From Thermofilum pendens Hrk 5 (GTDB lineage Archaea > Thermoproteota > Thermoprotei > Thermofilales > Thermofilaceae), in NCBI RefSeq assembly GCF_000015225.1, contig NC_008698.1, positions 630,001 to 662,000 on the forward strand: a stretch of DNA of 32,000 bases, read 5' to 3'. The number at the start of each line of letters is the position of its first letter. Position 1 is the stretch's first letter. The translations under genes and the position numbers were made by a program. The notes under the pieces are model-generated. The model was given only the letters and a program-made list of their open reading frames with translations, made no database searches and was not told the DNA's origin. Below, piece after piece: positions 11,535 to 30,839 of the stretch.

Positions 11535-11792
11535 TGCGCGCGGCTGTAACTACGACTAGGTGCGGATATAAGGCTTGCCCACGCGTGAGCATTTGCCTAA
11601 CGCGCTGTGACATCGCTCAACCTGTGAGGATAAAAAGGGTTTTTTCGGCTCCAAATCCTCGCCTCCATCAGTTTCGAAGCCTCCCCGACCTATCTCATCG
11701 CGGTTCTCTTTGCCCTTGCTTTCGCCTGCGCAGCACTCAGCGCGCACTCCCCGTCCTCCCCGACTTGTGCGCGTGGAGAAACGGGCTTCCGC

Positions 11793-11840
11793 GTTTACAA
11801 ACTTGGGAGAAAGAAGAAGGGAAAAAGAAGGTTTTTAAGG
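11793..11840. repeat. 48-nt GTTTACAAAC/purine-rich motif (copy 1)
   Basis: The first 21 nt of GTTTACAAACTTGGGAGAAAGAAGAAGGGAAAAAGAAGGTTTTTAAGG match 17950-17970 at 20/21. The last ~20 nt match 18009-18029 (GGAGAAAAAGGGGTTTTTA). Confidence 0.7.
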
Positions 11841-12044
11841 TTACTTCGCGCACGAGCGTTAAGGGCATGCTTCTGGGTAATAACTTGAATTTATAACGTA
11901 TACTAGGATCCCCGCGCGCCTTAATAACGTTGCTATTTTACAAATATGTCCAGCGTGTTTTTTACTAAGGTCATTGGCTACCTCTGAAGCATATTCGCGG
12001 TAATTAATTTATTTAAGTATTAAGGATTTTCCTAGGCGCCGCAA

Positions 12045-13403
12045 ATGACTCTCAGAGGTAAACGTGTCAAAGCGATTATAATGGGGGCGGCGGGCCGGGA
12101 CTTCCACAACTTTAACGTTCTCTTCCGGAATAACCCCGAGTACGAAATTGTAGCATTTACAGCGGCACAAATACCTTTTATTGACAACAGAGTATACCCG
12201 CCGGAGCTTGCCGGCGAGCTGTATCCTAACGGTATACCCATATACCCGGAAAGCATGCTAGAGGAACTCATAAAGAAATTCGGCGTTGAAAAAGTTTTCC
12301 TGTCCTACAGCGACCTGACGGCAGAGGAGGTCGCTGAGAAGGCTGGGCGCGTAGTAGCGGCGGGCGCCGAGTTTGTTCTGCCCGGAGTCTACGAGACGAT
12401 GATCTCTTCTCGGAAGCCGGTCATAGCTGTTACAGCTTCTAGAACAGGCGCCGGGAAGAGCACTGTTAGCAGGAGGGTAGCGAGAGTACTAAGAGAGCTG
12501 GGCGTAAGGTTCGTCGTAGTGAGGCACCCGATGCCTTACGGGGACTTGTTAAAGTCTGCTGTACAGCGTTTTGCCTCCTTGGAGGATCTCGAGAGGTACA
12601 ACTGCACGATAGAAGAGAGGGAGGAGTACGAGCCTCACATAGAGTCTGGCAACGTCGTCTATGCGGGCGTCGACTACGAAGCTATACTTCGAAGGGCGGA
12701 GGAGGAGGCCGACCTGGTGCTGTGGGACGGGGGGAACAACGACTGGCCCTTCTATAAACCGGATCTCTACATCACAGTTGTTGACCCGACTAGACCGAAG
12801 GACGTCGTGTCTTCGTACCCGGGCTATGTAAACGTCAGGCTCGCAGACGTGATAGTGGTTAACAAGGTTAACGTGGTAAGCCCGGAGAGCGTAGACCTTG
12901 TTGAGAAGAGTGTCCGAAGGATAAACGAGCGGGCAGTGATAGTAAGAGCGAAGTCGGAGCTCTACGTGGATAAACCGGAGCTTATCCGTGGTAAACGCGT
13001 GCTTGTAGTAGAGGACGGACCCACCGTTACGCACGGAGGTTTAAGCGTAGCGGCAGGCTACTATGCCGCCGTGAAGTACGGAGCACGAGAGGTAGTCGAT
13101 CCGAGGCCCTACGCTGTAGGCACCATTAAAGATGCCTACGAGAAATACACGCACATCGGACCCGTACTCCCAGCGCTGGGGTACAGCCAGCAGCAGTTAA
13201 GGGACTTAGAGAAAACGATAAACTCCGTGCAAGCTGATACAATAGTTTTAGGAACTCCGAGCAACCTCTTGCTCTACCTCAACGTGAATAAGCCCGCAGT
13301 GAGAGTAAGGTACGAATTGGAGGAAATCTCCAAACCGGACCTCCGCGACATATTGGTGAATTTCGTCGAGAAGAAAATCCCGTCGGCACGCGCGAGAGCT
13401 TAA
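12045..13403 (+). CDS. COG2403-family P-loop protein (annotated in databases as predicted GTPase or cyclic 2,3-diphosphoglycerate synthase-like)
   Basis: 452 aa. The N-terminus IMGAAGRDFHNFNVLFRNNPEYEIVAFTAAQIP, the P-loop SRTGAGKST and the motif RHPMPYGD fit this family as I recall it. An AT-rich TATA region lies about 29 nt upstream. Confidence 0.7.
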   Translation: MTLRGKRVKAIIMGAAGRDFHNFNVLFRNNPEYEIVAFTAAQIPFIDNRVYPPELAGELYPNGIPIYPESMLEELIKKFGVEKVFLSYSDLTAEEVAEKAGRVVAAGAEFVLPGVYETMISSRKPVIAVTASRTGAGKSTVSRRVARVLRELGVRFVVVRHPMPYGDLLKSAVQRFASLEDLERYNCTIEEREEYEPHIESGNVVYAGVDYEAILRRAEEEADLVLWDGGNNDWPFYKPDLYITVVDPTRPKDVVSSYPGYVNVRLADVIVVNKVNVVSPESVDLVEKSVRRINERAVIVRAKSELYVDKPELIRGKRVLVVEDGPTVTHGGLSVAAGYYAAVKYGAREVVDPRPYAVGTIKDAYEKYTHIGPVLPALGYSQQQLRDLEKTINSVQADTIVLGTPSNLLLYLNVNKPAVRVRYELEEISKPDLRDILVNFVEKKIPSARARA

Positions 13404-13461
13404 TCCTCCGTGTGAGAGTGTGAACAGAAGGGCGTCCTGGATCGATTTTTCTTCGCCTTAA

Positions 13462-13610
13462 CTGCTTTGCACGCCCGCACGCCTCCTGGAACGCTTGAAG
13501 AAAGCACGAGACAAAGTACTCAAAAAAACTGGAGTCAGAAGGTTAAGGAAATAGGCCAACAGGAAACAGGTGTCCGGCCTCCTTCCCCCCAGCCTCCTTG
13601 TCAAGCACGG
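13462..13610 (+). pseudogene. Start-less relic of the 3' end (31 codons plus 3' flank) of a paralogue of ORF 18295-19722
   Basis: The frame is open only over 13462-13554. It reads ..TPAR-LLERLKKARDKVLKKTGVRRLRK*, against ..HPARPSVERLLERLKKARERALRKLGDQDAKE* at 19627-19722. The downstream CCGGCCTCCTTCCCCCC..CCTCCTTGT block parallels 19741-19760. Confidence 0.6.
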
Positions 13611-13629
13611 CACGGGTTGCGCATAAAAG

Positions 13630-13639
13630 CTTATAAATA
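13630..13639 (+). promoter_or_regulatory. TATA box for tRNA-Pro
   Basis: CTTATAAATA, preceded by a purine-rich BRE-like GCATAAAAG, is centred about 32 nt upstream of tRNA position 1. Confidence 0.5.
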
Positions 13640-13666
13640 CGCGAAAAGTGTAATGAGCATACGTCC

Positions 13667-13802
13667 GGGGCCGTAGTCTAGCTTGGTAGGATAGGCTTCC
13701 CTAAAGCCAGCCTGGGGGTGTACCCCGTGACCGGACCGCTGGAGCGCGCGGTTCGCCGCGCGTAGCGAGTGGTCCCGGGTTCAAATCCCGGCGGCCCCAC
13801 CA
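13667..13802 (+). tRNA. tRNA-Pro(GGG) with three putative introns (25/26, 37/38, 43/44); CCA encoded
   Basis: Hand fold: acceptor GGGGCCG/CGGCCCC, D arm GTCT-AGCTTGGTA-GGAT, anticodon arm CCAGC-CUGGGGC-GCUGG, variable loop TGGTC, T arm CCGGG-TTCAAAT-CCCGG. The inserts are 13693-13705 (13 nt), 13718-13736 (19 nt) and 13743-13769 (27 nt). Each is bounded by 3-nt bulges flanking a 4-bp helix. The mature length is 77 nt. Confidence 0.8.
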
Positions 13803-13895
13803 CGTTACATAAATTCTTCGGCGTGTTTACACGTAAAGGAAAAACTGAACTCGAAAAAAATTCATAAGGGTGGAGGCTGAGTTAACTACCGGAAA

Positions 13896-13983
13896 GCGGG
13901 GGTGCCCGAGCTAGGACAAAGGGGGCGGACTTAGGCTCCGCTGGCGAAGGCCTGCCCGGGTTCGAATCCCGGCCCCCGCACCA
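13896..13983 (+). tRNA. tRNA-Leu(TAG), class II, no intron; CCA encoded
   Basis: Acceptor GCGGGGG/CCCCCGC, anticodon arm GCGGA-CTTAGGC-TCCGC, a long variable arm, and T arm CCGGG-TTCGAAT-CCCGG. Confidence 0.95.
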
Positions 13984-14039
13984 CTTCTTTGGTTTAGCAT
14001 ATGTTCCTTGGAACTCGGAACCGCTTCTTGCGCGAAAAG

Positions 14040-14049
14040 TTTTTATAGA
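14040..14049 (+). promoter_or_regulatory. TATA box of the thermosome gene
   Basis: TTTTTATAGA follows AAAAG. The predicted transcription start site (TSS) is near 14071, giving a ~37-nt leader that contains GGAGGTG (14096-14102) 5 nt before the ATG at 14108. Confidence 0.5.
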
Positions 14050-14107
14050 AGCGATAATTAAAGCCTTGAAGGCGAAAGAAGGTATGGCATCTATAGGAGG
14101 TGGTGGT

Positions 14108-15769
14108 ATGGCATCGGTGGCACAACTAGGAGGAGTTCCAGTGTTGATCCTGAAAGAGGGTACTTCGCGCCAGGCCGGGCGCGAAGCGCTTCACCTCAAC
14201 ATAATGATCGCGAAAGCAGTCGCGGAGACCGTCAAGACTACGCTAGGTCCTAAAGGCATGGATAAGATGCTTATCGACACTCTCGGAGACATAACGGTCT
14301 CCAACGACGGTGCAACAATCCTAGACGAGATGGACGTACAGCACCCGATCGCTAAGCTGATGGTCGAGGTAGCAAAAGCACAGGACAAAGAAGTCGGAGA
14401 CGGCACTACGACCGCTGTTGTGCTGACAGGAGAACTTCTAAAGGAGGCCGAGAAGCTCCTCGAAAAGAACATACACCCAACAATAATCGTCAGCGGCTAC
14501 AAGAAGGCTGCGGAGAAGGCCCGCGAAATTCTGGCCTCCAAGGCGATAAAGGTAGACCTTAACGACACGGAGACCTTGAAGAAAGTAGCAGCGACGTCCA
14601 TGCGGAGTAAGGCGGTAGCCGCCCTAAGGGACTACTTCGCAGACATAGCGGTTAAAGCCGTTAAACAGGTAGCCGAGGTAGTTAACGGCAAGTATGTCGT
14701 TGATATCGACAACATTCAGATAATCAAGAAGAAGGGAGGAGCATTCCTGGATACACAGCTCATATACGGCATAGTCGTCGACAAGGAGGTTGTGCACCCG
14801 GGTATGCCTAAGAGGGTTACGAACGCGAAGATAGCCCTTCTAGACGCCCCGCTGGAAGTAGAGAAGACGGAGATAGACGCGGAGATTAGGATCTCCTCGC
14901 CGGACCAGATGCACCAGTTCCTCGAGGAGGAGGAGAAGATACTCAGAGACATGGTCGAGAAGATTAAGGAGAGTGGTGCTAATGTTGTTTTCTGTCAGAA
15001 GGGTATTGATGATGTTGCTCAGTACTACTTGGCTAAGGCTGGTATTCTTGCTGTTAGGCGTGTGAAGAAGAGTGATATGGAGAAGCTTGCTAGGGCTACT
15101 GGTGCTAGGATTCTTACTAGGGTTGAGGATATTACGCCTGAGGCTCTCGGTAGGGCTGAGCTTGTGGAGGAGAGGAAGGTTGCAGACGAGAAGATGGTAT
15201 TCGTCGAGGGATGCCCCAACCCCAAGAGCGTAACAATACTAGTAAGAGGAGGCTTTGAGAGGGCTGTCGACGAGGCCGAGAGATCCATAAAGGATGCGCT
15301 CTACGCGGTGGCAGACGTGCTGAAGCATCCCTACATAGTGCCTGGAGGCGGAGCGATCGAGGCTGAGCTCGCGAGGGAGCTTCGAAAGTACGCTCCGGAG
15401 GTCGGAGGAAAGGAGCAGCTCGCGATAGAAGCATTTGCGAACGCCCTGGAAAGCATACCAAGGACTCTCGCCGAGAACTCCGGCCTAGACCCCATAGACA
15501 TAATTGCGGACCTGAGAGCGGCGCACGAGGATCCCTCGAAGTGGAGCTACGGTGTTGACGTCGTAAACGGTGGAGTAACCGACATGATCGCACTCGGAGT
15601 CTTCGAGCCGGCAACCGTCAAGGACCATGCAATAAAGGTAGCGACGGAGGCTGCAGCAATGATACTGAGGATCGACGACATAATCTCCGCGTCTAAACTG
15701 GAAGAGAAGAAGGGCGAAAAGGAAAAGAAGGAGGAGAAGGAGGAAGAAAAGTCCTCTGAGTTCGACTAA
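14108..15769 (+). CDS. ths: Thermosome subunit (group II chaperonin)
   Basis: Motifs [19 protein letters not shown] and VPGGGA are present, with a K/E-rich C-terminal tail. The ORF is open from TTG 14066, but the SD-preceded ATG at 14108 gives the family-typical N-terminus [19 protein letters not shown]. Confidence 0.96.
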
Positions 15770-15770
15770 A

Positions 15771-15790
15771 TTTTTCCTCTCTTTTCTTCT
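15771..15790 (+). terminator. Oligo-T/pyrimidine tract after the thermosome gene
   Basis: TTTTTCCTCTCTTTTCTTCT begins immediately after the TAA stop. This is the archaeal intrinsic terminator type. Confidence 0.5.
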
Positions 15791-15831
15791 ACTCGTAAAA
15801 GCAAGTTTTTTAAGGGTTTAGGCTTTCTCTC

Positions 15832-16422
15832 ATGATGCAAAGTAGCGGTGTACGGTCGAAGTTCCTTATACTAGTCACCGGTATGCCGGGAGCTGGTAAA
15901 ACAGTGTTCTCGCGCGTAGCCTCCTCAATGGGCGTACCGGTGCTAAGCATGGGAGACGTTGTTCGAAGCTACGCTGCTGAACGAGGTCTCCCCATGAACG
16001 ATGCGAGTCTTGGCAAGATCTCTCTGGAGCTTCGGGAAAAGTTCGGGCGAGCGGTAATAGCCGAGAGAACATTTGAGAGATTAGCTTCCATAGATCAAGG
16101 CGTAGTCGTGATTGAAGGGTTGAGGAACTTGGAGGAGCTGTTCTACTTTAGGGAAAGGGCTTCCGAGGCGTACTTGGTCGCTATTCACGCTTCCCAGAAG
16201 ACGAGGTACGAGAGGCTGAGAAAAAGAGGGAGAAAGGACGATCCGCTTAAATGGGAAGAGTTCTTGGAGAGGGATCTTAGAGAGCTCAGCGTGGGTCTCG
16301 GGTCTGTTATAGCTCTTGCCGACATAATGCTGGTAAACGAGGGAAAAACCGAGGAGGAGTTCGAGGAGGAATGCAGGGAAGCTTTGCAGAAATTGCTAGC
16401 GCGCGCAGAGGGGTTGCGATGA
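15832..16422 (+). CDS. P-loop nucleotide kinase-like protein (UPF0200/dephospho-CoA-kinase-like family)
   Basis: 196 aa with Walker A GMPGAGKT near the N-terminus and an adenylate-kinase-like size. The stop overlaps the next start (ATGA at 16419-16422). Confidence 0.65.
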
Positions 16423-16883
16423 AGGTAGTGGTAAGGGCACCCTTCTACCCCACGGAGTCCCTTGAAAAGGTTCTATCGAGTATATTCAACCTCTTCGATG
16501 CGCCTAAGGAGTCATGCGCAGTCGTGGGTGAAGGCAAAGGTAGGTATATCGAGTGCGTTTTCCACAACCATAAACCTCTCGAAAAGTTTAGGAGGCTTTT
16601 AAGGCAACAGAGAATACTGGACGCCGCGAGGTCGTACGTGGAGCGAGGGTTGCGGGAAGGCGAGGTAAAGTTCTACTTGAACAAGCAGGCAGCGTTCGCC
16701 GGGAAGGTAAGCTTCTGCACGTACGAAGCCGGGGAAAGCCCGCTAGGCTCAATAATAGTAGTCATAGAGCTTGGAAAGTGCTCCCCAGATGAGTTCCTCA
16801 ACTGGTTAGCTCCTAGAACGGTCAACGGAAAGCCTGTCGGAGAGGTATCCGAGCTGAAGTGCCTAGAACAAGGCTCAGGGTAG
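16419..16883 (+). CDS. UPF0201 (PF01877-like, predicted RNA-binding) protein
   Basis: The start [13 protein letters not shown] and the motifs [22 protein letters not shown] and ESPLGSI match my recollection of the family that usually sits next to UPF0200. The ORF-track start at 16371 lies inside the upstream gene. Confidence 0.6.
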
Positions 16884-16890
16884 GTTCGCA

Positions 16891-17841
16891 TTAGATGCAA
16901 TCGGTATTAATGCGCACGCTGAAAACGCGTGGCTCGGTGAATGCTACGTCTATAGTTAGCCCCTTCTCGGCTATTAGTACCCTCGGGTATTCGCCCACAG
17001 CCTCTGAAAGGTCGACTGCCGGGTTTCTGTACATCGCGCTGAAATGCGTCAAGACGAGAAGCCTCGACCGCGTCGCCTTAAACACCGCAACCGCGTCCTC
17101 GACAGTCGAGTGCGCCATGTAAGGCTTCCTGTACCAGTCTCTCTTAAGGAGCGTTGAATCATGTATAAGGACATCCGACTCCATAGCTTTAGACGCGAAC
17201 CTGTGGCTAGGAAGCGAGTCTCCCGTGTACGAGATCTTTACGCCGCGGACCACTTGCTTAACGAAGCTGTTGAGACTGTACTCCTTAGAGCCTACCCTCA
17301 CTTTTCCCTTTTCGAGAAGCTCCTTGCGTAGCGCAGGAGGAATCTTCTCTTGTTCCAGCTTCTCCTCGTCTAGCTTCACTTTATCTTCAACCCTGATAAT
17401 GTAGGACAAAGCCCCGTAGCTGTGCGGCGCCGCCACGTAGCTTACTGTAAGCGGCAGGCCCGGAAAACGAAGGATTCCTTCCCACCCGTAGAGCTCCGTC
17501 AGGCTTACCGGGTAGCCTGTAGTCCTCCTACCGGTAACCACCGAGCCAAGACCCGGGGGTCCGTAAACGCTAAGAGCCCTCTCTCTTCCGAGCAAGGACA
17601 GCGTCTCTAGGAGAGGGATTAACCCACTGTAGTGGTCGCTGTGAAGGTGAGTCACGAAAATGTAAAGGGGCGAGTTTACTCCTAGGTGGAAGCACTCCAA
17701 GGCCTTCTGGCAACGCTCTCCCACGTCTAACAGGAAGACTGTGTCGGCCATCTTCACCGCTATGCATGGTTGCTCGGCACTCTTCGGGGTCACCGCTCCT
17801 CCGGTTCCCCAGAACATAATGCGAATGCTCGAGATATTCAT
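16891..17841 (-). CDS. rnz: Ribonuclease Z (tRNA 3' endonuclease)
   Basis: Metallo-beta-lactamase signature THLHSDHYSG and the N-terminus MFWGTGGA. The ORF is open to GTG 17862, but the GTATATTAAG box (17880-17871, minus strand) is centred 34 nt upstream of ATG 17841 and only 13 nt from the GTG. Confidence 0.88.
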   Translation of the reverse strand: MNISSIRIMFWGTGGAVTPKSAEQPCIAVKMADTVFLLDVGERCQKALECFHLGVNSPLYIFVTHLHSDHYSGLIPLLETLSLLGRERALSVYGPPGLGSVVTGRRTTGYPVSLTELYGWEGILRFPGLPLTVSYVAAPHSYGALSYIIRVEDKVKLDEEKLEQEKIPPALRKELLEKGKVRVGSKEYSLNSFVKQVVRGVKISYTGDSLPSHRFASKAMESDVLIHDSTLLKRDWYRKPYMAHSTVEDAVAVFKATRSRLLVLTHFSAMYRNPAVDLSEAVGEYPRVLIAEKGLTIDVAFTEPRVFSVRINTDCI

Positions 17842-17949
17842 CGTGGAACCCTGTGTGTACACTACGTAGGCTTAATATACTACAACCCAAAGAAAGTTTT
17901 GGTTGTGCTCTATAACGCGTAGGTTCCGAAAAGGTTTTCTCGTTCCTTG

Positions 17950-18029
17950 GTTTACAAACATGGGAGAAAGCTGAAACCGAGTATCTCCCCAGTTTACAAA
18001 CCAGGAAAAAGGAGAAAAAGGGGTTTTTA
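17950..18029. repeat. GTTTACAAAC/purine-rich motif (copy 2, with internal 42-nt tandem duplication)
   Basis: GTTTACAAAC occurs at 17950 and again at 17992. The segment is related to 11793-11840. On the minus strand it reads UAAAAACCCCUUUUUCUCCUUUUUCC, an oligo-T terminator-like tract directly after the stop of the small (-) ORF. Confidence 0.7.
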
Positions 18030-18233
18030 CGCTAGCCCTAGCCCCCTGAGCTCTTCGACGTCCTTCTCTAGCTCTCTTGCTAGCTCTTCGTCTTCCTCGA
18101 CGCGCGGGGCGCTTTTCACGGAGGCTAGGAACTCCTCTACCGCGTCTAATGCTTCGGCGAGGCGCGCCTCGTAGAGCTCGTCGCGCCTAAGAGTGCTCGC
18201 CAGGATACGCGAGGGAGCGCCGACAGTCCGCAC
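18027..18233 (-). CDS. Hypothetical small acidic coiled protein (~68 aa from GTG 18233)
   Basis: The C-terminal 55 aa (LRRDELYEARLAEALDAVEEFLASVKSAPRVEEDEELARELEKDVEELRGLGLA) look protein-like and a T-rich tract follows. The start is uncertain: the ORF-track ATG at 18374 would overlap the opposite gene. Confidence 0.3.
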   Translation of the reverse strand: MRTVGAPSRILASTLRRDELYEARLAEALDAVEEFLASVKSAPRVEEDEELARELEKDVEELRGLGLA

Positions 18234-18294
18234 GGTAATCCCTGGAGCACGCCCCTCGCAGGGTGCCTGTCCACCATTTAAGGAAGGGTTAAGT

Positions 18295-19722
18295 ATGGGT
18301 AGGGAAATGATGGGGTGTGAGAAAAACGTGGCGGCTGAGGAGGCAGGGTTCGAAGAGTTCGACGAGTGGTTCATTCGCAGGAAGATCGAGGAGCTCCTGA
18401 GGAAGGCGCTGTTTCCGAGCGACGGCTATAGGGGGCTCGAGGCTACTCGCAACGAGGTTGCGCGGGAGCTTGCGGAAATAAGGGGCAACTATGCTCGGTA
18501 CGGCGAGGCCTACGTAGAATACGTTGGCAGGCTCGGGGAAGGCGAGGAGAAGGCGATCAAAGAGGCTGAGAAAGCGATGAGGGAAGCCCTGGAGCACGTA
18601 GACGAGCTCGAAATCAGGAGGACAGGCAGAGCGCACTGGAAGGCTAAGCTTCCAGGCAGGAGTTGGAGGCTATACGTACACTTGAAGCCTAGCGGGTACT
18701 GGGAGGTCGAGATCCGTTTACATCTCAGAGTCGTCAAGCTCAGGCTACCCGATACCCTGAGGCTCCCACCTGAGCTACTTAGAGCCGCCCAAGAGGGCTG
18801 GATCATGGGAGACGCATCGTACCGCGCGGACCGCGAAGAAGTCACGATGACTACAGCGCAGACATGGCAAGTAGCCTCCTTCCCTGGCTTCTGGCCGGGG
18901 AAGGAGGTGGCTGTCTACGTTGATAGAATCGAGATCCACGAGACGAGAGTCAGCGTTAAGTGGTACGTGGTTGTTAAGGGTGTTCGCGACGCGCCTCGCT
19001 GGTGGAGTCTCTCCAAAAAGGAGAAGCAGGGTATTATCTTGGCGGAGATCGAGGCGGCGAACAGAGGAGAAATCGACATTTTCAGGGCGCTAAAGCTCGC
19101 ATTGCTATACGTTACGGATGGAATGTATCCAGGGTCAAGCAACACAGCTAGACATGTGCTGGATTTCGCGGTCGGTCAAAATTCTCGCCGAGTTAGAACC
19201 GAGGGTGCGGTGAAGGTTGCGAGGCTTCTCTACGAGAAAGTACCGCAACTCTTAGCGTACATGGTTGCGTCAGGCTGCCAGAAAGCAGAGTTCTTAGCGA
19301 GCCTGGCATCCGTGAAGCCGCGACACTACGCACCTCGCTACCTAGAGGTTGCGGGTGTCAAAATGACCTTGCTACTCGTAGGCGCTTCACGCGCGCTTGC
19401 GGCAGTGGTGTACGTAACCGAGGATAACGAGGAGACGCTTAGGGGTTTCCCTGAGAGGGCGAGGCGGGAGGGCTTAGAAGTCAGGAAGGTGAAGGTGAGC
19501 AAGGGGCGCTGGGGTTATCGCGCCGGGCAAAAGGAGTTGCTAAGGTATGCCGATAAGCGCCCAATAGTTTACGACACACTCATAGCGTTCGTGGAGGAGA
19601 GACTCGGAGCAATGCCTCTCAATCACCCAGCAAGGCCGAGTGTGGAGCGCCTCCTGGAACGCCTAAAAAAGGCGCGCGAAAGAGCGCTTAGAAAGCTGGG
19701 GGACCAAGACGCTAAAGAGTAA
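18295..19722 (+). CDS. Hypothetical protein of a multi-copy family with two LAGLIDADG-like motifs
   Basis: Long ORF, open from GTG 18193, with ATG codons at 18295, 18307 and 18310. A TTTAAG box at 18275-18284 lies 27 nt from 18307. I recognise no family. The motifs are EGWIMGDAS (18793-18819) and LALLYVTDGMY (19096-19128). Truncated paralogous 3' ends lie at 13462-13610 and 30614-30751. Confidence 0.75.
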   Translation: MGREMMGCEKNVAAEEAGFEEFDEWFIRRKIEELLRKALFPSDGYRGLEATRNEVARELAEIRGNYARYGEAYVEYVGRLGEGEEKAIKEAEKAMREALEHVDELEIRRTGRAHWKAKLPGRSWRLYVHLKPSGYWEVEIRLHLRVVKLRLPDTLRLPPELLRAAQEGWIMGDASYRADREEVTMTTAQTWQVASFPGFWPGKEVAVYVDRIEIHETRVSVKWYVVVKGVRDAPRWWSLSKKEKQGIILAEIEAANRGEIDIFRALKLALLYVTDGMYPGSSNTARHVLDFAVGQNSRRVRTEGAVKVARLLYEKVPQLLAYMVASGCQKAEFLASLASVKPRHYAPRYLEVAGVKMTLLLVGASRALAAVVYVTEDNEETLRGFPERARREGLEVRKVKVSKGRWGYRAGQKELLRYADKRPIVYDTLIAFVEERLGAMPLNHPARPSVERLLERLKKARERALRKLGDQDAKE

Positions 19723-19770
19723 GACCACCATGGAAAGGCGCCCGGCCCCCCTCCTCTTGTGCGAGTTGTA
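19648..19770 (+). repeat. Conserved 3' module of the family (last ~25 codons plus ~48-nt 3' flank), reference copy
   Basis: Compared with the reverse complement of 30614-30712: the 27-nt block at 19724-19750 matches at 26/27, and the first 50 nt from 19651 show about 6 mismatches. The match to 13481-13600 is looser. Confidence 0.75.
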
Positions 19771-19808
19771 GAGGTGAGGTTTTAAGGGGGTTAAACGTTA
19801 TACTAGGC

Positions 19809-20894
19809 GTGCGTGCGATGGCGGCTACGGGTAGGCGGCTCCTAGTGCTATGTGTGGATAGGGATAACGACGTCGGTACAGTTCTCAATGTAAAGACACC
19901 ACTTGTAGGCGAGGAGGCTGTGCTCAATGCGGCTGTCGAGTATAGCCTTGCACGCCCAGACGACTCCGACTCGAACGCTATGTTCGCGGCCGTCCAGACG
20001 TACCGCGAGCTTAGAAAGACGTACGGCGACGGCGTCGAGGTCGCGCTTGTAGCGGGGCTGGAAAGGGAGGGCGTGGAGGGGGATATGAAAATTCTCCAAG
20101 AGCTCGACCAAGTACTCTCGCAGGGCCGCTTTGACGGTGTCGTCTTGGTGTCCGACGGTCCCACGGATGAGGCAGTGGCGCCGCTGATACAGTCGAAGCT
20201 TCCAATAGTGTCCATCAGGCGTGTTATAGTACAGCAGGAAAGGGGGGTAGAGGAGACCTTCGTGTTGCTCGTGAACTACGTGAAAAAGGCCTTTACGGAA
20301 GAAAACTACAAGAGGTACTCGCTGGGGCTTACGGGGCTCTTCCTGGTAATCTACAGTTTACTCTCATACTTCCTACCGCAGTTCGTATGGCCTATACTCA
20401 TAACCGCCCTCGGGGGATTCATGTTCTTCAAGGGCTACGACCTGGGCGAATACTTCTCAAGCATCTACAAGACAAAGCCCATAACGTTCGCGTCAATCCT
20501 CCTCTCGATCATATTATCGCTTCTCGCATTGATACAGGGGATCTACGCTGTGCTTAAAACGCCTTACATCGACTTCTTCGGAGCCATCGGGAGGCTCCTG
20601 TTGGCGCCTGTAGGTGCCCAGTTGTTAGCCGTGGATCTACTAGTCCTTGGAGCGGTTCTACCGTTTCTAGGAAGCCTTATAGACGCCGCGATAGCGGGTA
20701 AGGAGACTAGGTACAGCGATGCACTAGTCATAGCCGTTATACTCATGGCGAGGCAGCTCGCCGTCGAGACGGCGCGCTTCCTCAGTGGCGGTGGAGACAT
20801 ACGGGGTGTCCTCACGTGGTCCTTTGTAGTGCTAAGCAGCGTGGTCGTAATGGTAGTAGCGTTCACGCTTGAGAGAGGCGCCAGAAGGCAGTGA
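19809..20894 (+). CDS. DUF373-family archaeal membrane protein
   Basis: 361 aa. A soluble N-terminal domain (LVLCVDRDNDVG..VLVSDGPTDE..VSIRRV) is followed by about 6 TM helices. The start is either GTG 19809 or ATG 19818. Confidence 0.7.
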   Translation: MRAMAATGRRLLVLCVDRDNDVGTVLNVKTPLVGEEAVLNAAVEYSLARPDDSDSNAMFAAVQTYRELRKTYGDGVEVALVAGLEREGVEGDMKILQELDQVLSQGRFDGVVLVSDGPTDEAVAPLIQSKLPIVSIRRVIVQQERGVEETFVLLVNYVKKAFTEENYKRYSLGLTGLFLVIYSLLSYFLPQFVWPILITALGGFMFFKGYDLGEYFSSIYKTKPITFASILLSIILSLLALIQGIYAVLKTPYIDFFGAIGRLLLAPVGAQLLAVDLLVLGAVLPFLGSLIDAAIAGKETRYSDALVIAVILMARQLAVETARFLSGGGDIRGVLTWSFVVLSSVVVMVVAFTLERGARRQ

Positions 20895-20969
20895 GAATAC
20901 GCTGGAAAGAGCCGTTGCGCCACCCTTGCTCCGTAATCCTTGAGGCGTTACTTCGTGAAGGGTGGGACC

Positions 20970-22094
20970 ATGTTCTTGGAGAAGTTCAACGTTAGTTATC
21001 CGAACGAACCGCGAGTCTTCGCTGTATATACGACGTGGTGTGTTTCCCGGTGCAATTTTTACGAGACGCTGGAAGCGCTGGAAAGTACCGGAGAAGCTCG
21101 AGTGCTAGGCTCTCTCGGCGACCGCCTCGTGTTTCTAGCCGCGAGAAGCCTCGAGGGCATAGTAGAGAGGCTCTACAGCGTCGCGTGCGTAGAGGAGCTG
21201 TACTTCGTCCTGGGAGAGGCGAGGCTGGGAGAGAGACCCCTCCTAGAGGGAGACATGCTGTCCAGAGTCTCACACCTCCTTCTCCACGCTACGACTTTCA
21301 ACGTGAAAATTCTCGATTGCGAAAAAATGCTGGGTGTAGAGGAAAAGGCGAAGCTTAGAGAAGATTTTTCGAAGATTCTGAAAGAGCTACGCGAAGGGCT
21401 CAGAGCATCCAGAACCGGGCCGGACTTGGAGTTCGTTGTCATAGTGCTTAGCCGTGACAGAGCTCTCCTGTCTTTAACCGTCAAGAGATACAGGAAGGAT
21501 AGGTTCGCTTTTCGAAGTCCTGAGCGAAGGGCTTACTCGCAGCCGAGCGCGCTAACACCTTGGCTTTCCCTCACAATCCTCAACCTGGCCTTGGCAACCC
21601 AGCCAGCGGGCGGAGAAGGGGGTTTTGACGTAGCTTTCCTGGACCCGTTCTGCGGCACGGGAGGAGTTCTGATAGAGGCAGCTCTTCAGGGGATGTACTC
21701 CGTTGGCGTCGATGTAAACTATAGGCAAGTGAGAGGATCGAAAAAGAACCTAAGCGTCTTAGGGCTAAGGGCGGTAGCAGACCTTGTCCTCTGCGACTCT
21801 ACAAAGCTCCCCTTTAGAGCCGAGGCGTTCAATGCCGCAGCCTTCGATCCCCCATACGGGAGGCTCGCACCGACTCATGGGAGAGACCCCGGAGAGATTC
21901 TTCGAGGAGCCTTGAGAAACGTAGTTGAGTCCGTTAAGCCTCGGGGAAGAATAGCTTTCTTCGCCTCCGACATGCTCCTTCAAAACGTAGACGCACCAGC
22001 GCTTTGCGATGTATACGAGCACAGCTCCCTAACGAGACATGTGATCGTAGTTCGCAGAACTAACCACGCGGCTGGCGGGCCCGCCGGGACTTGA
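20970..22094 (+). CDS. Trm11/Trm-G10-like tRNA (guanine-N2) methyltransferase (predicted)
   Basis: The C-terminal class I SAM-dependent methyltransferase carries FLDPFCGTGG and DPPYG motifs, behind an N-terminal THUMP-like region. ATG 20970 is preferred over TTG 20940. The last 22 nt run antisense into tRNA-Arg. Confidence 0.7.
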   Translation: MFLEKFNVSYPNEPRVFAVYTTWCVSRCNFYETLEALESTGEARVLGSLGDRLVFLAARSLEGIVERLYSVACVEELYFVLGEARLGERPLLEGDMLSRVSHLLLHATTFNVKILDCEKMLGVEEKAKLREDFSKILKELREGLRASRTGPDLEFVVIVLSRDRALLSLTVKRYRKDRFAFRSPERRAYSQPSALTPWLSLTILNLALATQPAGGEGGFDVAFLDPFCGTGGVLIEAALQGMYSVGVDVNYRQVRGSKKNLSVLGLRAVADLVLCDSTKLPFRAEAFNAAAFDPPYGRLAPTHGRDPGEILRGALRNVVESVKPRGRIAFFASDMLLQNVDAPALCDVYEHSSLTRHVIVVRRTNHAAGGPAGT

Positions 22095-22168
22095 ACCCGG
22101 GACGTCCGCGCGCACCAGCGCTCAACGGCTCCGCAGGCCGCCACGCTTCCTAGCTACGCCACGGGCCC
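22073..22168 (-). tRNA. tRNA-Arg(GCG) with a 19-nt variable-loop intron (45/46); CCA encoded
   Basis: Reverse complement: GGGCCCG TG GCGT AGCTAGGAA GCGT G GCGGC CTGCGGA GCCGT TG[AGCGCTGGTGCGCGCGGAC]GTC CCGGG TTCAAGT CCCGG CGGGCCC G CCA. The intron at 22104-22122 forms a BHB: central helix CCGU/GCGG, bulges UGA and ACG, inner hairpin GCGC-UGGU-GCGC. Confidence 0.85.
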
Positions 22169-30613: not shown

Positions 30614-30751
30614 GGGGGCCGGGCGCCTTTCCCTGGTGGTTTACCCTTATTCCTGCCCTGTCCTCAGCTTTCTAAACGCTCTTTCTCGCGCCTTCCTTAG
30701 GCGTTCCAAGAGACGTTCTACATTTCGGCGGGCGCGCGCGAGTAAAGTTAT
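30614..30751 (-). pseudogene. Start-less relic of the 3' end of a paralogue of ORF 18295-19722 (inverted orientation)
   Basis: The minus strand reads ..RRAARNVERLLERLRKARERAFRKLRTGQE*, with the stop at 30649-30647. It is followed by ACCACCAGGGAAAGGCGCCCGGCCCCC, which matches 19724-19750 at 26/27. An in-frame stop at 30754-30752 closes the frame upstream. Confidence 0.65.
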
Positions 30752-30839
30752 CTAGCCTTGGAAAAGTTATCCTAGTGCGCTTTTACTTTCGCCGAACATG
30801 AAAGGTAATTTAACCCGGGTAATACGAAGGTAGTACGCT

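What the first reader, a model, noticed from the sequence alone, without database searches (positions are those of the whole stretch)
17950..19770. Orphan divergent gene pair whose large protein carries two LAGLIDADG-like helices
A divergent pair that I cannot assign to any family is wedged between two housekeeping genes, RNase Z and DUF373. A single TTTAAG/CTTAAA box (18275-18284) could serve both genes.

The (+) protein has a charged helical N-terminus and then two motifs 102 residues apart: EGWIMGDAS (nt 18793-18819) and LALLYVTDGMY (nt 19096-19128). Each is a hydrophobic helix end terminating in G/T-D-A/G, followed by a beta-like stretch (EEVTMTTAQTWQ...). That is the arrangement of the two catalytic helices in monomeric double-motif LAGLIDADG homing endonucleases. 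This reading rests on motif shape and spacing only.

Separately, truncated copies of this gene's 3' end occur twice more in the window, and its left-flank motif occurs once more. That pattern is what a selfish or proliferating gene would leave behind.
Basis: partly seen in the sequence, partly recalled or inferred. Interest (0 to 1): 0.8.

Follow-up and report, generated by a model that had tools for sequence, protein, structure and literature searches.

The report
Multicopy LAGLIDADG-like endonuclease gene in Thermofilum
The large gene belongs to an unannotated, many-copy family of hot-spring archaea that is predicted to fold like a two-domain LAGLIDADG homing endonuclease and leaves broken copies at genome rearrangement points, so it is probably a selfish DNA-cutting gene, not a housekeeping gene.

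Summary
Window 18295-19722(+) encodes a 475-aa protein of Thermofilum pendens Hrk5, between an RNase Z-like gene and DUF373. No Pfam, NCBIfam, PHROG, PADLOC or PDB sequence match exists.

It is not an orphan. T. pendens has at least 9 full-length paralogues (22-77% identity), a pseudogene and several 5'-truncated remnants. Hot-spring metagenomes hold at least 545 relatives.

[quoted passage not shown] Each opens with a helix ending in one of the aspartates. Foldseek's top hits in PDB (I-Tsp061I, prob 0.96) and BFVD (homing endonucleases, inteins) are LAGLIDADG proteins, but no E-value is below 2e-3. All sequence and profile tests against LAGLIDADG proteins were negative, so the fold call rests on predicted structure only.

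The "divergent pair" is not a module. The repeat unit starts 38 nt upstream of the ATG, includes the TTTAAG box, and excludes the small ORF.

The gene and one remnant lie exactly at synteny breakpoints relative to three Thermofilaceae MAGs.

Verdict: probably a new, very divergent, free-standing LAGLIDADG-type selfish gene family. Nuclease activity and mobility are untested.

The parts
18295..19722 (+). Large gene, 475 aa (ABL78100 / WP_011752365, 'hypothetical protein', Thermofilum pendens Hrk5). It belongs to a multicopy family predicted to have a double LAGLIDADG-like fold. The only Met conserved among paralogues is M5 (ATG 18307), which may be the true start.
18257..18294 (+). Upstream edge of the repeated unit. 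It is conserved with the pseudogene copy in L010 and contains the TATA-like TTTAAG box at 18277-18282. The box lies 25-30 nt before ATG 18307, which fits a leaderless transcript (inference).
18793..18819 (+). Motif 1, EGWIMGDAS. It is the end of predicted helix 159-171. G168, W169 and D173 are invariant, and a beta hairpin follows (174-177, 182-187).
19096..19128 (+). Motif 2, LALLYVTDGMY (in distant members LLTxYLGDG). It is the end of predicted helix 262-275. D275 and G276 are invariant.
19723..19754 (+). Conserved non-coding motif directly after the stop codon: GACCACCATGGAAAGGCGCCCGGCCCCCCTCC. It is kept in all five 3' ends that could be read. No RNA structure was found and its function is unknown.
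   Evidence: (I4)
30614..30757 (-). 5'-truncated remnant of a paralogue: the last ~28-31 codons, the stop codon and the downstream motif. It is intergenic.
13393..13590 (+). More decayed 3' remnant (up to ~60 codons plus a degenerate downstream motif). It lies between the 452-aa gene and the tRNA genes, at a synteny breakpoint.
18027..18233 (-). Small divergent ORF, 68 aa (ABL78099). Its codon usage is gene-like, but no homologue was found in any fetched locus. It lies outside the repeated unit and its function is unknown.
17950..18031 (+). Left-flank module: GTTTACAAAC twice (17950 and 17992), then an A/G-rich stretch ending GGTTTTTA. It lies downstream of the small ORF and upstream of the RNase Z-like gene.
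11793..11840 (+). Second copy of the left-flank module. It lies in the PIN / 452-aa intergenic region, which is 510 bp here against 143 bp in the closest MAG.

Best explanation
Window 18295-19722 is one copy of a free-standing, multicopy gene family of Thermoproteota. Its product is most likely a monomeric, two-domain LAGLIDADG-type endonuclease with an extra N-terminal domain (a helical hairpin plus a four-stranded sheet, residues 24-150) and a C-terminal helical tail.

Proposed mechanism (inferred, by analogy with I-DmoI and I-SceI):
- The two motif helices (159-171 and 262-275) pack against each other.
- D173 and D275 at their ends bind Mg2+.
- The two beta sheets read a long asymmetric DNA site, and both strands are cut.
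- Repair of the break from a gene-carrying copy spreads the gene, together with its own promoter and about 30 nt of downstream sequence, into intergenic sites.
- Aborted or later-decayed copies leave the 5'-truncated remnants, which all keep the 3' end and the downstream motif.
- The repeats, or the breaks, then favour rearrangements such as the one at this locus.

Shown: multicopy status; invariant motif residues; predicted topology; best fold matches; the extent of the repeat unit; remnants; absence from the syntenic site in relatives; position at synteny breakpoints.

Inferred: that the predicted fold is right, catalysis, the target site, homing, and any causal role in the rearrangement.
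For: Family size
- 7 close paralogues in T. pendens, 49-77% identity.
- Distant full-length paralogues P0008 and P0009, the truncated P0013, and the P0010 pseudogene.
- At least 545 relatives in hot-spring metagenomes.

Conservation
- D173 and D275 are each present in 80 of 80 distinct members.
- G168, W169, T187, Q192 and G276 are invariant; K330 is present in 79 of 80.

Structure
- AlphaFold2 on 15 sequences gives pLDDT 87.6 and pTM 0.67.
- First unit: H159-171, E174-177, E182-187, H190-199, E204-215, E218-228, H241-256.
- Second unit: H262-275, E289-293, E296-300, helices 302-337, E349-362, E367-373, H385-391.

Fold search
- PDB: rank 1 is I-Tsp061I (prob 0.96, E 0.025). I-OnuI, I-GzeII, I-DmoI (three times) and I-TnaI are also in the top 50.
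- The earlier, poorer model also had a LAGLIDADG enzyme as top hit.
- BFVD: rank 1 is 'Homing endonuclease' (E 2e-3). Rank 5 is 'Endonuclease' (prob 0.99, TM 0.41, 7.8 A over 227 columns). Rank 9 is 'LAGLIDADG DNA endonuclease family'. Several Hint or intein-named proteins also appear.

Motif spacing
- 102 residues here, against 101 in I-SceI (D44 to D145) and 96 in I-DmoI (D21 to E117). Positions come from sequences verified against 1r7m and 1b24 and from PMC3384342.

Selfish behaviour
- The repeat unit is the gene plus 38 nt upstream and about 30 nt downstream.
- Remnants with variable 5' truncation: aa ~294, ~412, ~443, ~460.
- Among the 80 metagenomic loci, 6 carry copies split by a stop codon or frameshift, and 3 carry extra fragments beside a full copy.
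- The gene is absent from the equivalent position in three Thermofilaceae MAGs. The gene and one remnant sit at two of the three breakpoints of the local rearrangement.
- Codon usage is native, so this is a long-resident family.
Against: - No sequence-level link to LAGLIDADG proteins. There was no Pfam hit at E<=10 for 25 members scanned.
- Profile searches of the PDB found no LAGLIDADG protein.
- hhalign against I-SceI and I-DmoI gave P = 0.04-0.44.
- An HMM of the core scored I-SceI and I-DmoI inside the shuffled distribution.
- The two halves show no detectable internal repeat.
- The lysines next to the active site of LAGLIDADG enzymes have no clear counterpart. Position 189 is mostly Q, and K330 lies in a predicted helix.
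- Paralogues are old (<=77% identity), so there is no sign of recent transposition in T. pendens.
- No empty versus filled site pair between close strains was available.
- Invariance of G168, W169, D173, W191 and Q192 in the metagenomic set is partly by construction, because these residues were in the search patterns. D275, G276, T187 and K330 are free of that bias.
Confidence: 0.6

Rival explanations
1. The fold is LAGLIDADG-like, but the proteins are domesticated host factors: sequence-specific DNA binders or regulators, as WhiA is in bacteria. They would have expanded by ordinary gene duplication and would neither cut DNA nor move.
For: - The paralogues are old and divergent, with native codon usage.
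- Extra N- and C-terminal domains surround the core, as WhiA carries an added HTH domain (PMC3384342).
- Copies sit next to highly expressed housekeeping genes.
- The 8dy9/8dy7 complexes, which contain WhiA, appear in the Foldseek list.
- The flanking lysines of active enzymes are not evident.
Against: - WhiA-type domesticated proteins have lost the acidic residues at the helix ends (PMC3384342). Here both are invariant in 80 members.
- Frequent pseudogenes, truncated remnants and patchy presence are not expected of a needed host regulator.
- The unit that is copied is the gene with its own promoter and a conserved 3' motif.
Confidence: 0.2
2. The LAGLIDADG resemblance is a prediction artefact. 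The family would then be an unrelated repeated gene of the 'paREP2'-type elements of Thermoproteales, for example an unrecognised transposase or an element-encoded protein with another fold and chemistry.
For: - UniProt calls paralogue P0002 'PaREP2b'.
- The P. oguniense genome paper calls PaREP2b 'putative transposons' (PMC3558965).
- One metagenomic relative has a sub-threshold PF07775 hit: 17.5 bits against a cut-off of 20.4.
- All sequence-level tests against LAGLIDADG failed.
- Foldseek E-values are weak.
Against: - Two independent structure libraries, and two models of different quality, all put LAGLIDADG endonucleases on top.
- The order of secondary-structure elements and the placement of the invariant Asp/Gly residues match the defining description of the fold.
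- No T. pendens member hits PF07775, even at E<=10.
- No terminal inverted repeats appear at the unit edges.
Confidence: 0.15
3. This is an ordinary lineage-specific paralogous family of unknown function. The short repeats are chance matches or shared regulatory sequence (terminators, promoters), not gene remnants.
For: - The second 3' copy (13480-13526) and the 21-nt left-flank match are short and only marginally significant on their own.
- The left-flank module lies outside the repeat unit.
Against: - The 30614-30757 copy keeps reading frame, stop codon and downstream motif (blastn E 1.5e-21).
- L009 holds a 165-codon remnant and L010 a stop-interrupted copy.
- Disrupted copies recur in metagenomes.
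Confidence: 0.05

Closest known systems
Monomeric double-motif LAGLIDADG homing endonucleases (I-DmoI, I-Tsp061I, I-SceI; Pfam LAGLIDADG_1/2/3)
   Same: [quoted passage not shown]
- Motif 1 (G-W-x-x-[GST]-D-[AE]) has the pattern of I-SceI GLILGDA. Motif 2 ([FYW]-L-G-D-G) resembles I-SceI WFMDDG.
- Motif spacing is 102 residues, against 101 in I-SceI and 96 in I-DmoI.
- These proteins are the best fold matches in PDB and BFVD.
- The family shows a selfish-gene signature of pseudogenes and remnants.
   Different: - No detectable sequence or profile similarity.
- About 475 aa against 180-300 aa, with an extra 150-residue N-terminal domain and an 80-residue C-terminal extension.
- Insertions in the second unit.
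- No clear counterpart of the active-site lysines.
- Free-standing in intergenic DNA, not inside an intron or intein.
- 9 or more diverged copies in one chromosome.
WhiA / DUF199 (domesticated LAGLIDADG regulator)
   Same: - A LAGLIDADG-type core fused to extra domains.
- A chromosomal, free-standing gene.
- Entries containing WhiA appear among the fold matches.
   Different: - WhiA has lost the acidic residues and is a single-copy conserved gene (PMC3384342).
- Here the acidic residues are invariant.
- Here the family is multicopy, patchy and decaying.
PaREP2b (Pfam PF07775), a repeated gene of Pyrobaculum genomes
   Same: - A repeated, unannotated gene of roughly 450-500 aa in Thermoproteales.
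- One T. pendens paralogue carries this name in UniProt.
- PaREP2 elements are associated with indels between Pyrobaculum genomes (PMC3558965).
   Different: - The Pfam model does not match any T. pendens member.
- Only one metagenomic relative matches, below threshold, over 55 C-terminal residues.
- At most a shared C-terminal module.
Free-standing homing endonuclease genes of phages (e.g. T4 seg and mob genes; from general knowledge)
   Same: - An intergenic, promoter-carrying endonuclease gene, with many diverged copies per genome.
- The gene itself, with minimal flanks, is the unit that spreads.
   Different: - The phage genes are GIY-YIG or HNH enzymes in phage genomes.
- No relative of this family was found in IMG/VR viral contigs or in PHROGs.

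Membership tests
LAGLIDADG homing endonucleases (Pfam LAGLIDADG_1/2/3, Hom_end) | Significant sequence or profile match to a LAGLIDADG family model or to a solved LAGLIDADG protein | tested here: not met
   - Pfam hmmscan of 25 members gave none, even at E<=10.
- PDB profile searches with 15 and 60 sequences gave none.
- hhalign against I-SceI and I-DmoI gave P 0.04-0.44.
- An HMM against 3000 shuffles showed no signal.
LAGLIDADG homing endonucleases | [quoted passage not shown] | tested here: met
   DSSP on the AlphaFold model (pLDDT 87.6) gives H159-171/E/E/H/E/E/H241-256 and H262-275/E/E/H/E/E/H385-391. This is a predicted structure only, and the second unit has insertions.
LAGLIDADG homing endonucleases | Statistically significant 3-D similarity to solved LAGLIDADG enzymes, with the two motif helices packed at the domain interface | tested here: inconclusive
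   - Foldseek top hits are LAGLIDADG enzymes in PDB (I-Tsp061I, prob 0.96, E 0.025, TM 0.34) and BFVD (E 2e-3; prob up to 0.99, TM 0.41).
- No E-value is <=1e-3.
LAGLIDADG homing endonucleases | Acidic metal-binding residue at the penultimate position of each motif | tested here: met
   D173 and D275 are each invariant in 80 distinct members and in the 60-sequence alignment A6. D173 was part of a search pattern for the metagenomic set; D275 was not.
LAGLIDADG homing endonucleases | Conserved basic residue (usually Lys) next to each active site, on a DNA-binding loop | tested here: inconclusive
   K330 is present in 79 of 80 members but lies in a predicted helix. Position 189, after strand 2, is Q in 69, K in 6 and R in 4. 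Equivalence cannot be judged without a superposition.
LAGLIDADG homing endonucleases | Mg2+-dependent site-specific double-strand cleavage of a long (14-40 bp) target | not testable with these tools
   Needs biochemistry. A candidate target or anchor is the conserved 32-nt motif 19723-19754.
LAGLIDADG homing endonucleases | Mobility: presence/absence at a defined site, and copying into empty sites | tested here: inconclusive
   The gene is absent at the corresponding position of three Thermofilaceae MAGs. These are distant (44-58% identity of the neighbouring DUF373 gene) and the locus is rearranged. No close-strain pair was available.
PaREP2b (Pfam PF07775) | Match to PF07775 at or above the gathering score (20.4 bits) | tested here: not met
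   No hit for any T. pendens member. One metagenomic relative scored 17.5 bits over 55 residues.
IS-type transposon | Terminal inverted repeats at the unit edges and a recognisable transposase domain | tested here: not met
   No inverted repeat pairs 18257 with 19754. No transposase family was found in Pfam or NCBIfam. An imperfect 9-nt direct repeat G(T/A)CCACCAT at both edges (18269-18277 and 19723-19731) was seen by eye only.

The most novel reading that the evidence does not exclude
The family is an autonomous 'gene-sized' mobile element of hyperthermophilic archaea. It would be a free-standing LAGLIDADG endonuclease gene that homes ectopically within one chromosome.
- It would recognise or use the conserved ~32-nt motif that follows every copy.
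- Break repair would copy the gene from its 3' end inward, giving the 5'-truncated remnants.
- Its breaks or repeats would drive inversions between housekeeping operons.

It would also be a large untapped source (at least 545 environmental members) of thermostable, long-site nucleases with an unusual added N-terminal domain.
Probability: 0.3. Interest if true: 0.8.

Novelty: new variant of a known kind. Interest (0 to 1): 0.6.

Why it matters
If the prediction holds, a family with hundreds of members in hot-spring archaea, annotated everywhere as 'hypothetical', is a very divergent branch of the LAGLIDADG endonucleases.

- It lies beyond the reach of Pfam and of profile searches.
- It is free-standing and multicopy in cellular chromosomes, whereas archaeal LAGLIDADG genes are usually described inside introns or inteins.
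- It would explain part of the repeat content and synteny breaks of Thermoproteales genomes, the old 'paREP' problem.
- It would give a testable case of intragenomic homing.
- It would offer new thermostable long-site nucleases for engineering.

If the proteins prove non-catalytic, they would be a second, archaeal example of LAGLIDADG domestication, unlike WhiA in keeping the acidic residues.

Tried and rejected
- Pfam, NCBIfam, PHROGs and PADLOC scans of the window protein and of distant members: nothing relevant.
- PDB sequence and profile searches (single sequence, 15-sequence and 60-sequence profiles): no LAGLIDADG hit. The only matches were spurious ones to designed repeat or helical proteins, plus a weak one to PH1819 (2een, E 0.019).
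- hhalign of the family profiles against verified I-SceI and I-DmoI sequences: not significant. The only stretches aligned were motif 2 against the LAGLIDADG motif, and residues 371-420 against the I-DmoI second-domain beta-alpha-beta-beta-alpha (P 0.04).
- Core HMM against I-SceI and I-DmoI, compared with 3000 shuffles each: no signal.
- Domain 1 against domain 2 by hhalign: no internal repeat signal.
- Test of whether the 452-aa gene (12045-13403), which is bracketed by the left-flank motif and a 3' remnant, is a hidden family member: rejected (hhalign prob 0.4%). It is conserved and syntenic in the MAGs.
- Test of whether the small ORF is a PaREP1 fragment: rejected (blastp E 0.044, no Pfam hit).
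- Search for the small ORF next to other copies or in 90 loci: none found.
- RNA explanations for the conserved 3' motif and flanks: Rfam found nothing there, and the consensus fold is only -3.9 kcal/mol.
- Viral origin: no relatives in IMG/VR.
- Reading the genomic context of the other T. pendens paralogues: look-ups failed for P0002-P0008, and T. pendens is absent from the genome collection. Only two other T. pendens loci (L004; L009/L010) could be examined.
- My earlier impression that both window remnants start at the same codon was wrong. With the L009 remnants included, the truncation points differ.
Full report
**1. What is there**

The window is part of the Thermofilum pendens Hrk5 chromosome. 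The protein matches ABL78100 / WP_011752365 at 100%, and the window corresponds to about 1.65-1.68 Mb of a 1,815,852-bp record.

The large gene runs from ATG 18295 to the stop at 19720-19722 (475 aa). Its left neighbour, 16891-17862(-), is a metallo-beta-lactamase / RNase Z-like gene. Its right neighbour, 19809-20894(+), is DUF373.

- The strong 3' copy (19641-19750 against 30722-30614) has blastn E 1.5e-21.
- Its 19-nt stretch after the stop codon is identical in both copies.
- The copy at 13480 is marginal alone but is supported by protein-level and downstream-motif alignment.
- The 21-nt left-flank match is 20/21 identical and stands well above shuffles.

**2. It is not an orphan**

No curated library recognises the protein. 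Even so, T. pendens itself has six close paralogues of 458-474 aa at 49-77% identity.

An exhaustive HMMER scan and a cluster look-up add more from the same genome:
- two distant full-length paralogues, P0008 and P0009 (22-24% identity in the alignment);
- a 244-aa truncated copy, P0013;
- a 60-aa N-terminal fragment, P0010.

Relatives also occur in Pyrobaculum, Vulcanisaeta and Infirmifilum MAGs. They are mostly on short hot-spring contigs.

By accession order, eight of the nine full-length T. pendens copies lie within about 270 genes of each other.

UniProt calls one paralogue 'PaREP2b'. The Pfam PaRep2b model (PF07775) matches none of the T. pendens proteins. It matches one metagenomic relative, and only below threshold.

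**3. The motifs**

In 80 distinct full-length members (down to about 17-20% identity to the window protein):
- D173 and D275 are invariant.
- G168, W169, T187, Q192 and G276 are also invariant.
- K330, Q166 and W191 are each present in 79 of 80.

Caveat: the metagenomic members were found with patterns containing GWRASD or WQ. Invariance of G168, W169, D173, W191 and Q192 in that subset is therefore partly by construction. D275, G276, T187 and K330 are unbiased. All of these residues also hold among the independently found T. pendens and MAG proteins. The one exception is P0013, the truncated copy, which has lost both aspartates.

That test is passed.

**4. Fold**

AlphaFold2 with only the 7 close paralogues gave a mediocre model (pLDDT 71). 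With 15 diverse sequences it gave pLDDT 87.6 and pTM 0.67.

The order of elements is as follows:
- N-terminal helical hairpin (24-100).
- A four-stranded sheet (106-150).
- First unit: helix 159-171 (ends in motif 1), strands 174-177 and 182-187, helix 190-199, strands 204-215 and 218-228, helix 241-256.
- Second unit: helix 262-275 (ends in motif 2), strands 289-293 and 296-300, helices 302-337, strands 349-362 and 367-373, helix 385-391.
- A further beta-beta-alpha and a long C-terminal helix.

[quoted passage not shown] In those enzymes the metal-binding acid sits at the end of the first helix of each unit (PMC3384342).

Foldseek against the PDB put I-Tsp061I first. It is an intron-encoded LAGLIDADG enzyme of a related crenarchaeon (prob 0.96, E 0.025). 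I-OnuI, I-GzeII, I-DmoI (three entries) and I-TnaI are also in the top 50. The poorer first model also had a LAGLIDADG enzyme on top.

Against BFVD, the top hits were:
- 'Homing endonuclease' (E 2e-3);
- a Hint protein;
- 'Endonuclease' (prob 0.99, TM 0.41, 7.8 A over 227 columns);
- 'LAGLIDADG DNA endonuclease family';
- several other Hint or intein-named proteins.

**5. Sequence-level tests all failed**

I verified I-SceI and I-DmoI sequences against 1r7m and 1b24. By eye, motif 1 (GWIMGDASY) resembles I-SceI GLILGDAYI, and motif 2 of distant members (LTWFLGDG) resembles I-SceI AYWFMDDG. The spacing is 102 here against 101.

The statistics do not back this up:
- hhalign gives P = 0.04-0.44.
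- A core HMM scores the real enzymes inside the shuffled distribution.
- Profile searches of the PDB find no LAGLIDADG protein.
- The two halves are not detectably similar to each other.

The LAGLIDADG assignment is therefore a structural prediction supported by motif placement and conservation. It is not a demonstrated homology. I put the fold at about 0.75.

**6. The 'divergent pair' is not a unit**

PGAP and GenBank call a 68-aa gene at 18027-18233(-). Its codon usage is gene-like, whereas the upstream extension of the 115-aa ORF is not.

In the other T. pendens copy whose upstream DNA is readable (L009/L010), the copy is stop-interrupted and lies just after the RNase P p29 gene. There, similarity to the window begins at 18257, 38 nt before the ATG and including the TTTAAG box. 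No small ORF is present.

The small protein has no homologue in any of the 90 loci fetched and no family hit. The box therefore belongs to the large gene.

The box lies 25-30 nt upstream of ATG 18307. This is the only N-terminal Met conserved in all paralogues and the first residue of P0006. That fits a leaderless mRNA starting at 18307 (inference).

**7. The unit that is copied, and its remnants**

The shared unit is the promoter, the gene and about 32 nt after the stop codon (GACCACCATGGAAAGGCGCCCGGCCCCCCTCC, 19723-19754).

That downstream motif is kept in all five readable 3' ends:
- the window gene;
- 30614-30645(-);
- 13556-13590, degenerate;
- L009 2340-2385;
- L009 1719-1752(-).

It shows no RNA structure and no Rfam hit.

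The remnants are 5'-truncated at different points (about aa 294, 412, 443 and 460), but all keep the 3' end. They lie in intergenic DNA beside ribosomal-protein, tRNA and other housekeeping genes.

Metagenomic loci show the same pattern:
- six copies split by a stop codon or frameshift;
- three extra fragments beside full copies;
- one contig with two full copies 4.8 kb apart at 78% nt identity.

DNA similarity between loci is mostly confined to the gene plus roughly 50-100 nt of flank, though about 1 kb upstream is shared in some lineages. No terminal inverted repeats bound the unit.

**8. Synteny**

Three Thermofilaceae MAGs were compared (44-58% identity of DUF373). In the closest MAG (L006) the 452-aa gene lies directly upstream of DUF373. 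All three share the order DUF373 -> methyltransferase -> RNase Z-like(+), and in the other two (L007, L008) the RNA-binding gene(-) follows. None has a family member there.

T. pendens instead has this order:
- the 452-aa gene;
- [3' remnant];
- tRNAs, thermosome, AAA18, RNA-binding(+), RNase Z-like(-);
- [small ORF + large gene];
- DUF373, methyltransferase;
- tRNA-Arg(-).

The full gene and one remnant occupy two of the three breakpoints.

The third breakpoint and the first are marked by two tRNA 3' ends that are 90% complementary over 31 nt (13772-13802 and 22073-22103). Undoing an inversion between them would place the remnant and the gene in inverted orientation around the DUF373-methyltransferase block. 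That block is itself inverted relative to the MAGs. The geometry is what recombination between two inverted copies would leave, but this is a reconstruction, not a demonstration.

**9. Interpretation**

The best reading (0.6) is a free-standing, multicopy, very divergent LAGLIDADG-type endonuclease gene family behaving as a selfish element. It is long resident: codon usage is native and paralogues are at most 77% identical.

Rival readings:
- A domesticated, non-cutting DNA-binding family (0.2). The invariant acidic residues argue against it, since WhiA has lost them. So does the decay pattern.
- A non-LAGLIDADG 'paREP2'-type element protein, with the fold call an artefact (0.15).
- An ordinary family with chance repeats (0.05).

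**10. Novelty**

The searchable literature holds no paper that mentions LAGLIDADG together with paREP or Thermofilum. The only statement found on PaREP2b is 'putative transposons' (PMC3558965).

I rate this a new variant of a known kind: a known fold and chemistry, if confirmed, in an unrecognised family with added domains, an unusual genomic lifestyle and a large environmental distribution.

Noticed in passing
window 13665-13802 (+) and 22073-22168 (-): A probable intron-containing tRNA gene at about 13665-13802 is called neither by ARAGORN nor by Rfam at gathering score. Its last 31 nt are 90% complementary to the 3' end of tRNA-Arg(GCG) at 22073-22103. The two bracket the segment that is rearranged relative to related MAGs.
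   Followed up: partly
window 12045-22168 compared with L006-L008: Gene order differs from three Thermofilaceae MAGs by what looks like two nested inversions. One is the block from the tRNAs to the methyltransferase. The other is the DUF373-methyltransferase block.
   Followed up: partly
window 11535-12044: The intergenic region between the PIN gene and the 452-aa gene is 510 bp here, against 143 bp in the closest MAG (L006 5388-5530). The extra DNA holds the second copy of the GTTTACAAAC... module. Its function is unknown.
   Followed up: partly
L004 6350-7230, 8001-8735 and 10317-10904 (T. pendens genome 450-467 kb): The truncated family member P0013 (which has lost both aspartates) lies next to a stretch whose six-frame ORFs repeat the peptide FQCFHSCF / MLSQLL. 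This looks like a CRISPR-type array. It is also close to a PaREP1 (PF05942) gene. Tandem Repeats Finder did not report the array.
   Followed up: no
L004 7429-7583: A perfect tandem duplication of a 77-nt unit (2.0 copies, 100% identity), just upstream of the truncated family member.
   Followed up: no
L009 1671-2465: Two family remnants lie between the ribosomal protein genes L37ae and L22. One is a short 3' end plus downstream motif on the minus strand (~1719-1800). The other is a 165-codon C-terminal remnant on the plus strand (1819-2335), closest to P0006/P0007.
   Followed up: partly
alignment A6 profile positions 276-358: A weak sequence match (E 0.019) to PDB 2een, hypothetical protein PH1819 of Pyrococcus horikoshii. 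It covers the helical insertion of the second unit. Its meaning is unknown.
   Followed up: no
L040, L044, L045, L051, L072, L085 (300-600 nt upstream of the family gene): In about 8 metagenomic loci a small same-strand ORF precedes the family gene. It reads ...PYKTRTAFTN...IYLNEHLIDDEEV.EYL..ELIHI.LH, which looks like a small metallopeptidase-like motif. Several hundred nt of upstream DNA are also conserved among subsets of loci.
   Followed up: no
window 18269-18277 and 19723-19731: An imperfect 9-nt direct repeat G(T/A)CCACCAT sits at both edges of the repeated unit. GGCGCC-containing stretches lie outside it on both sides. This was seen by eye and only one complete copy was available, so it is not tested.
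   Followed up: no
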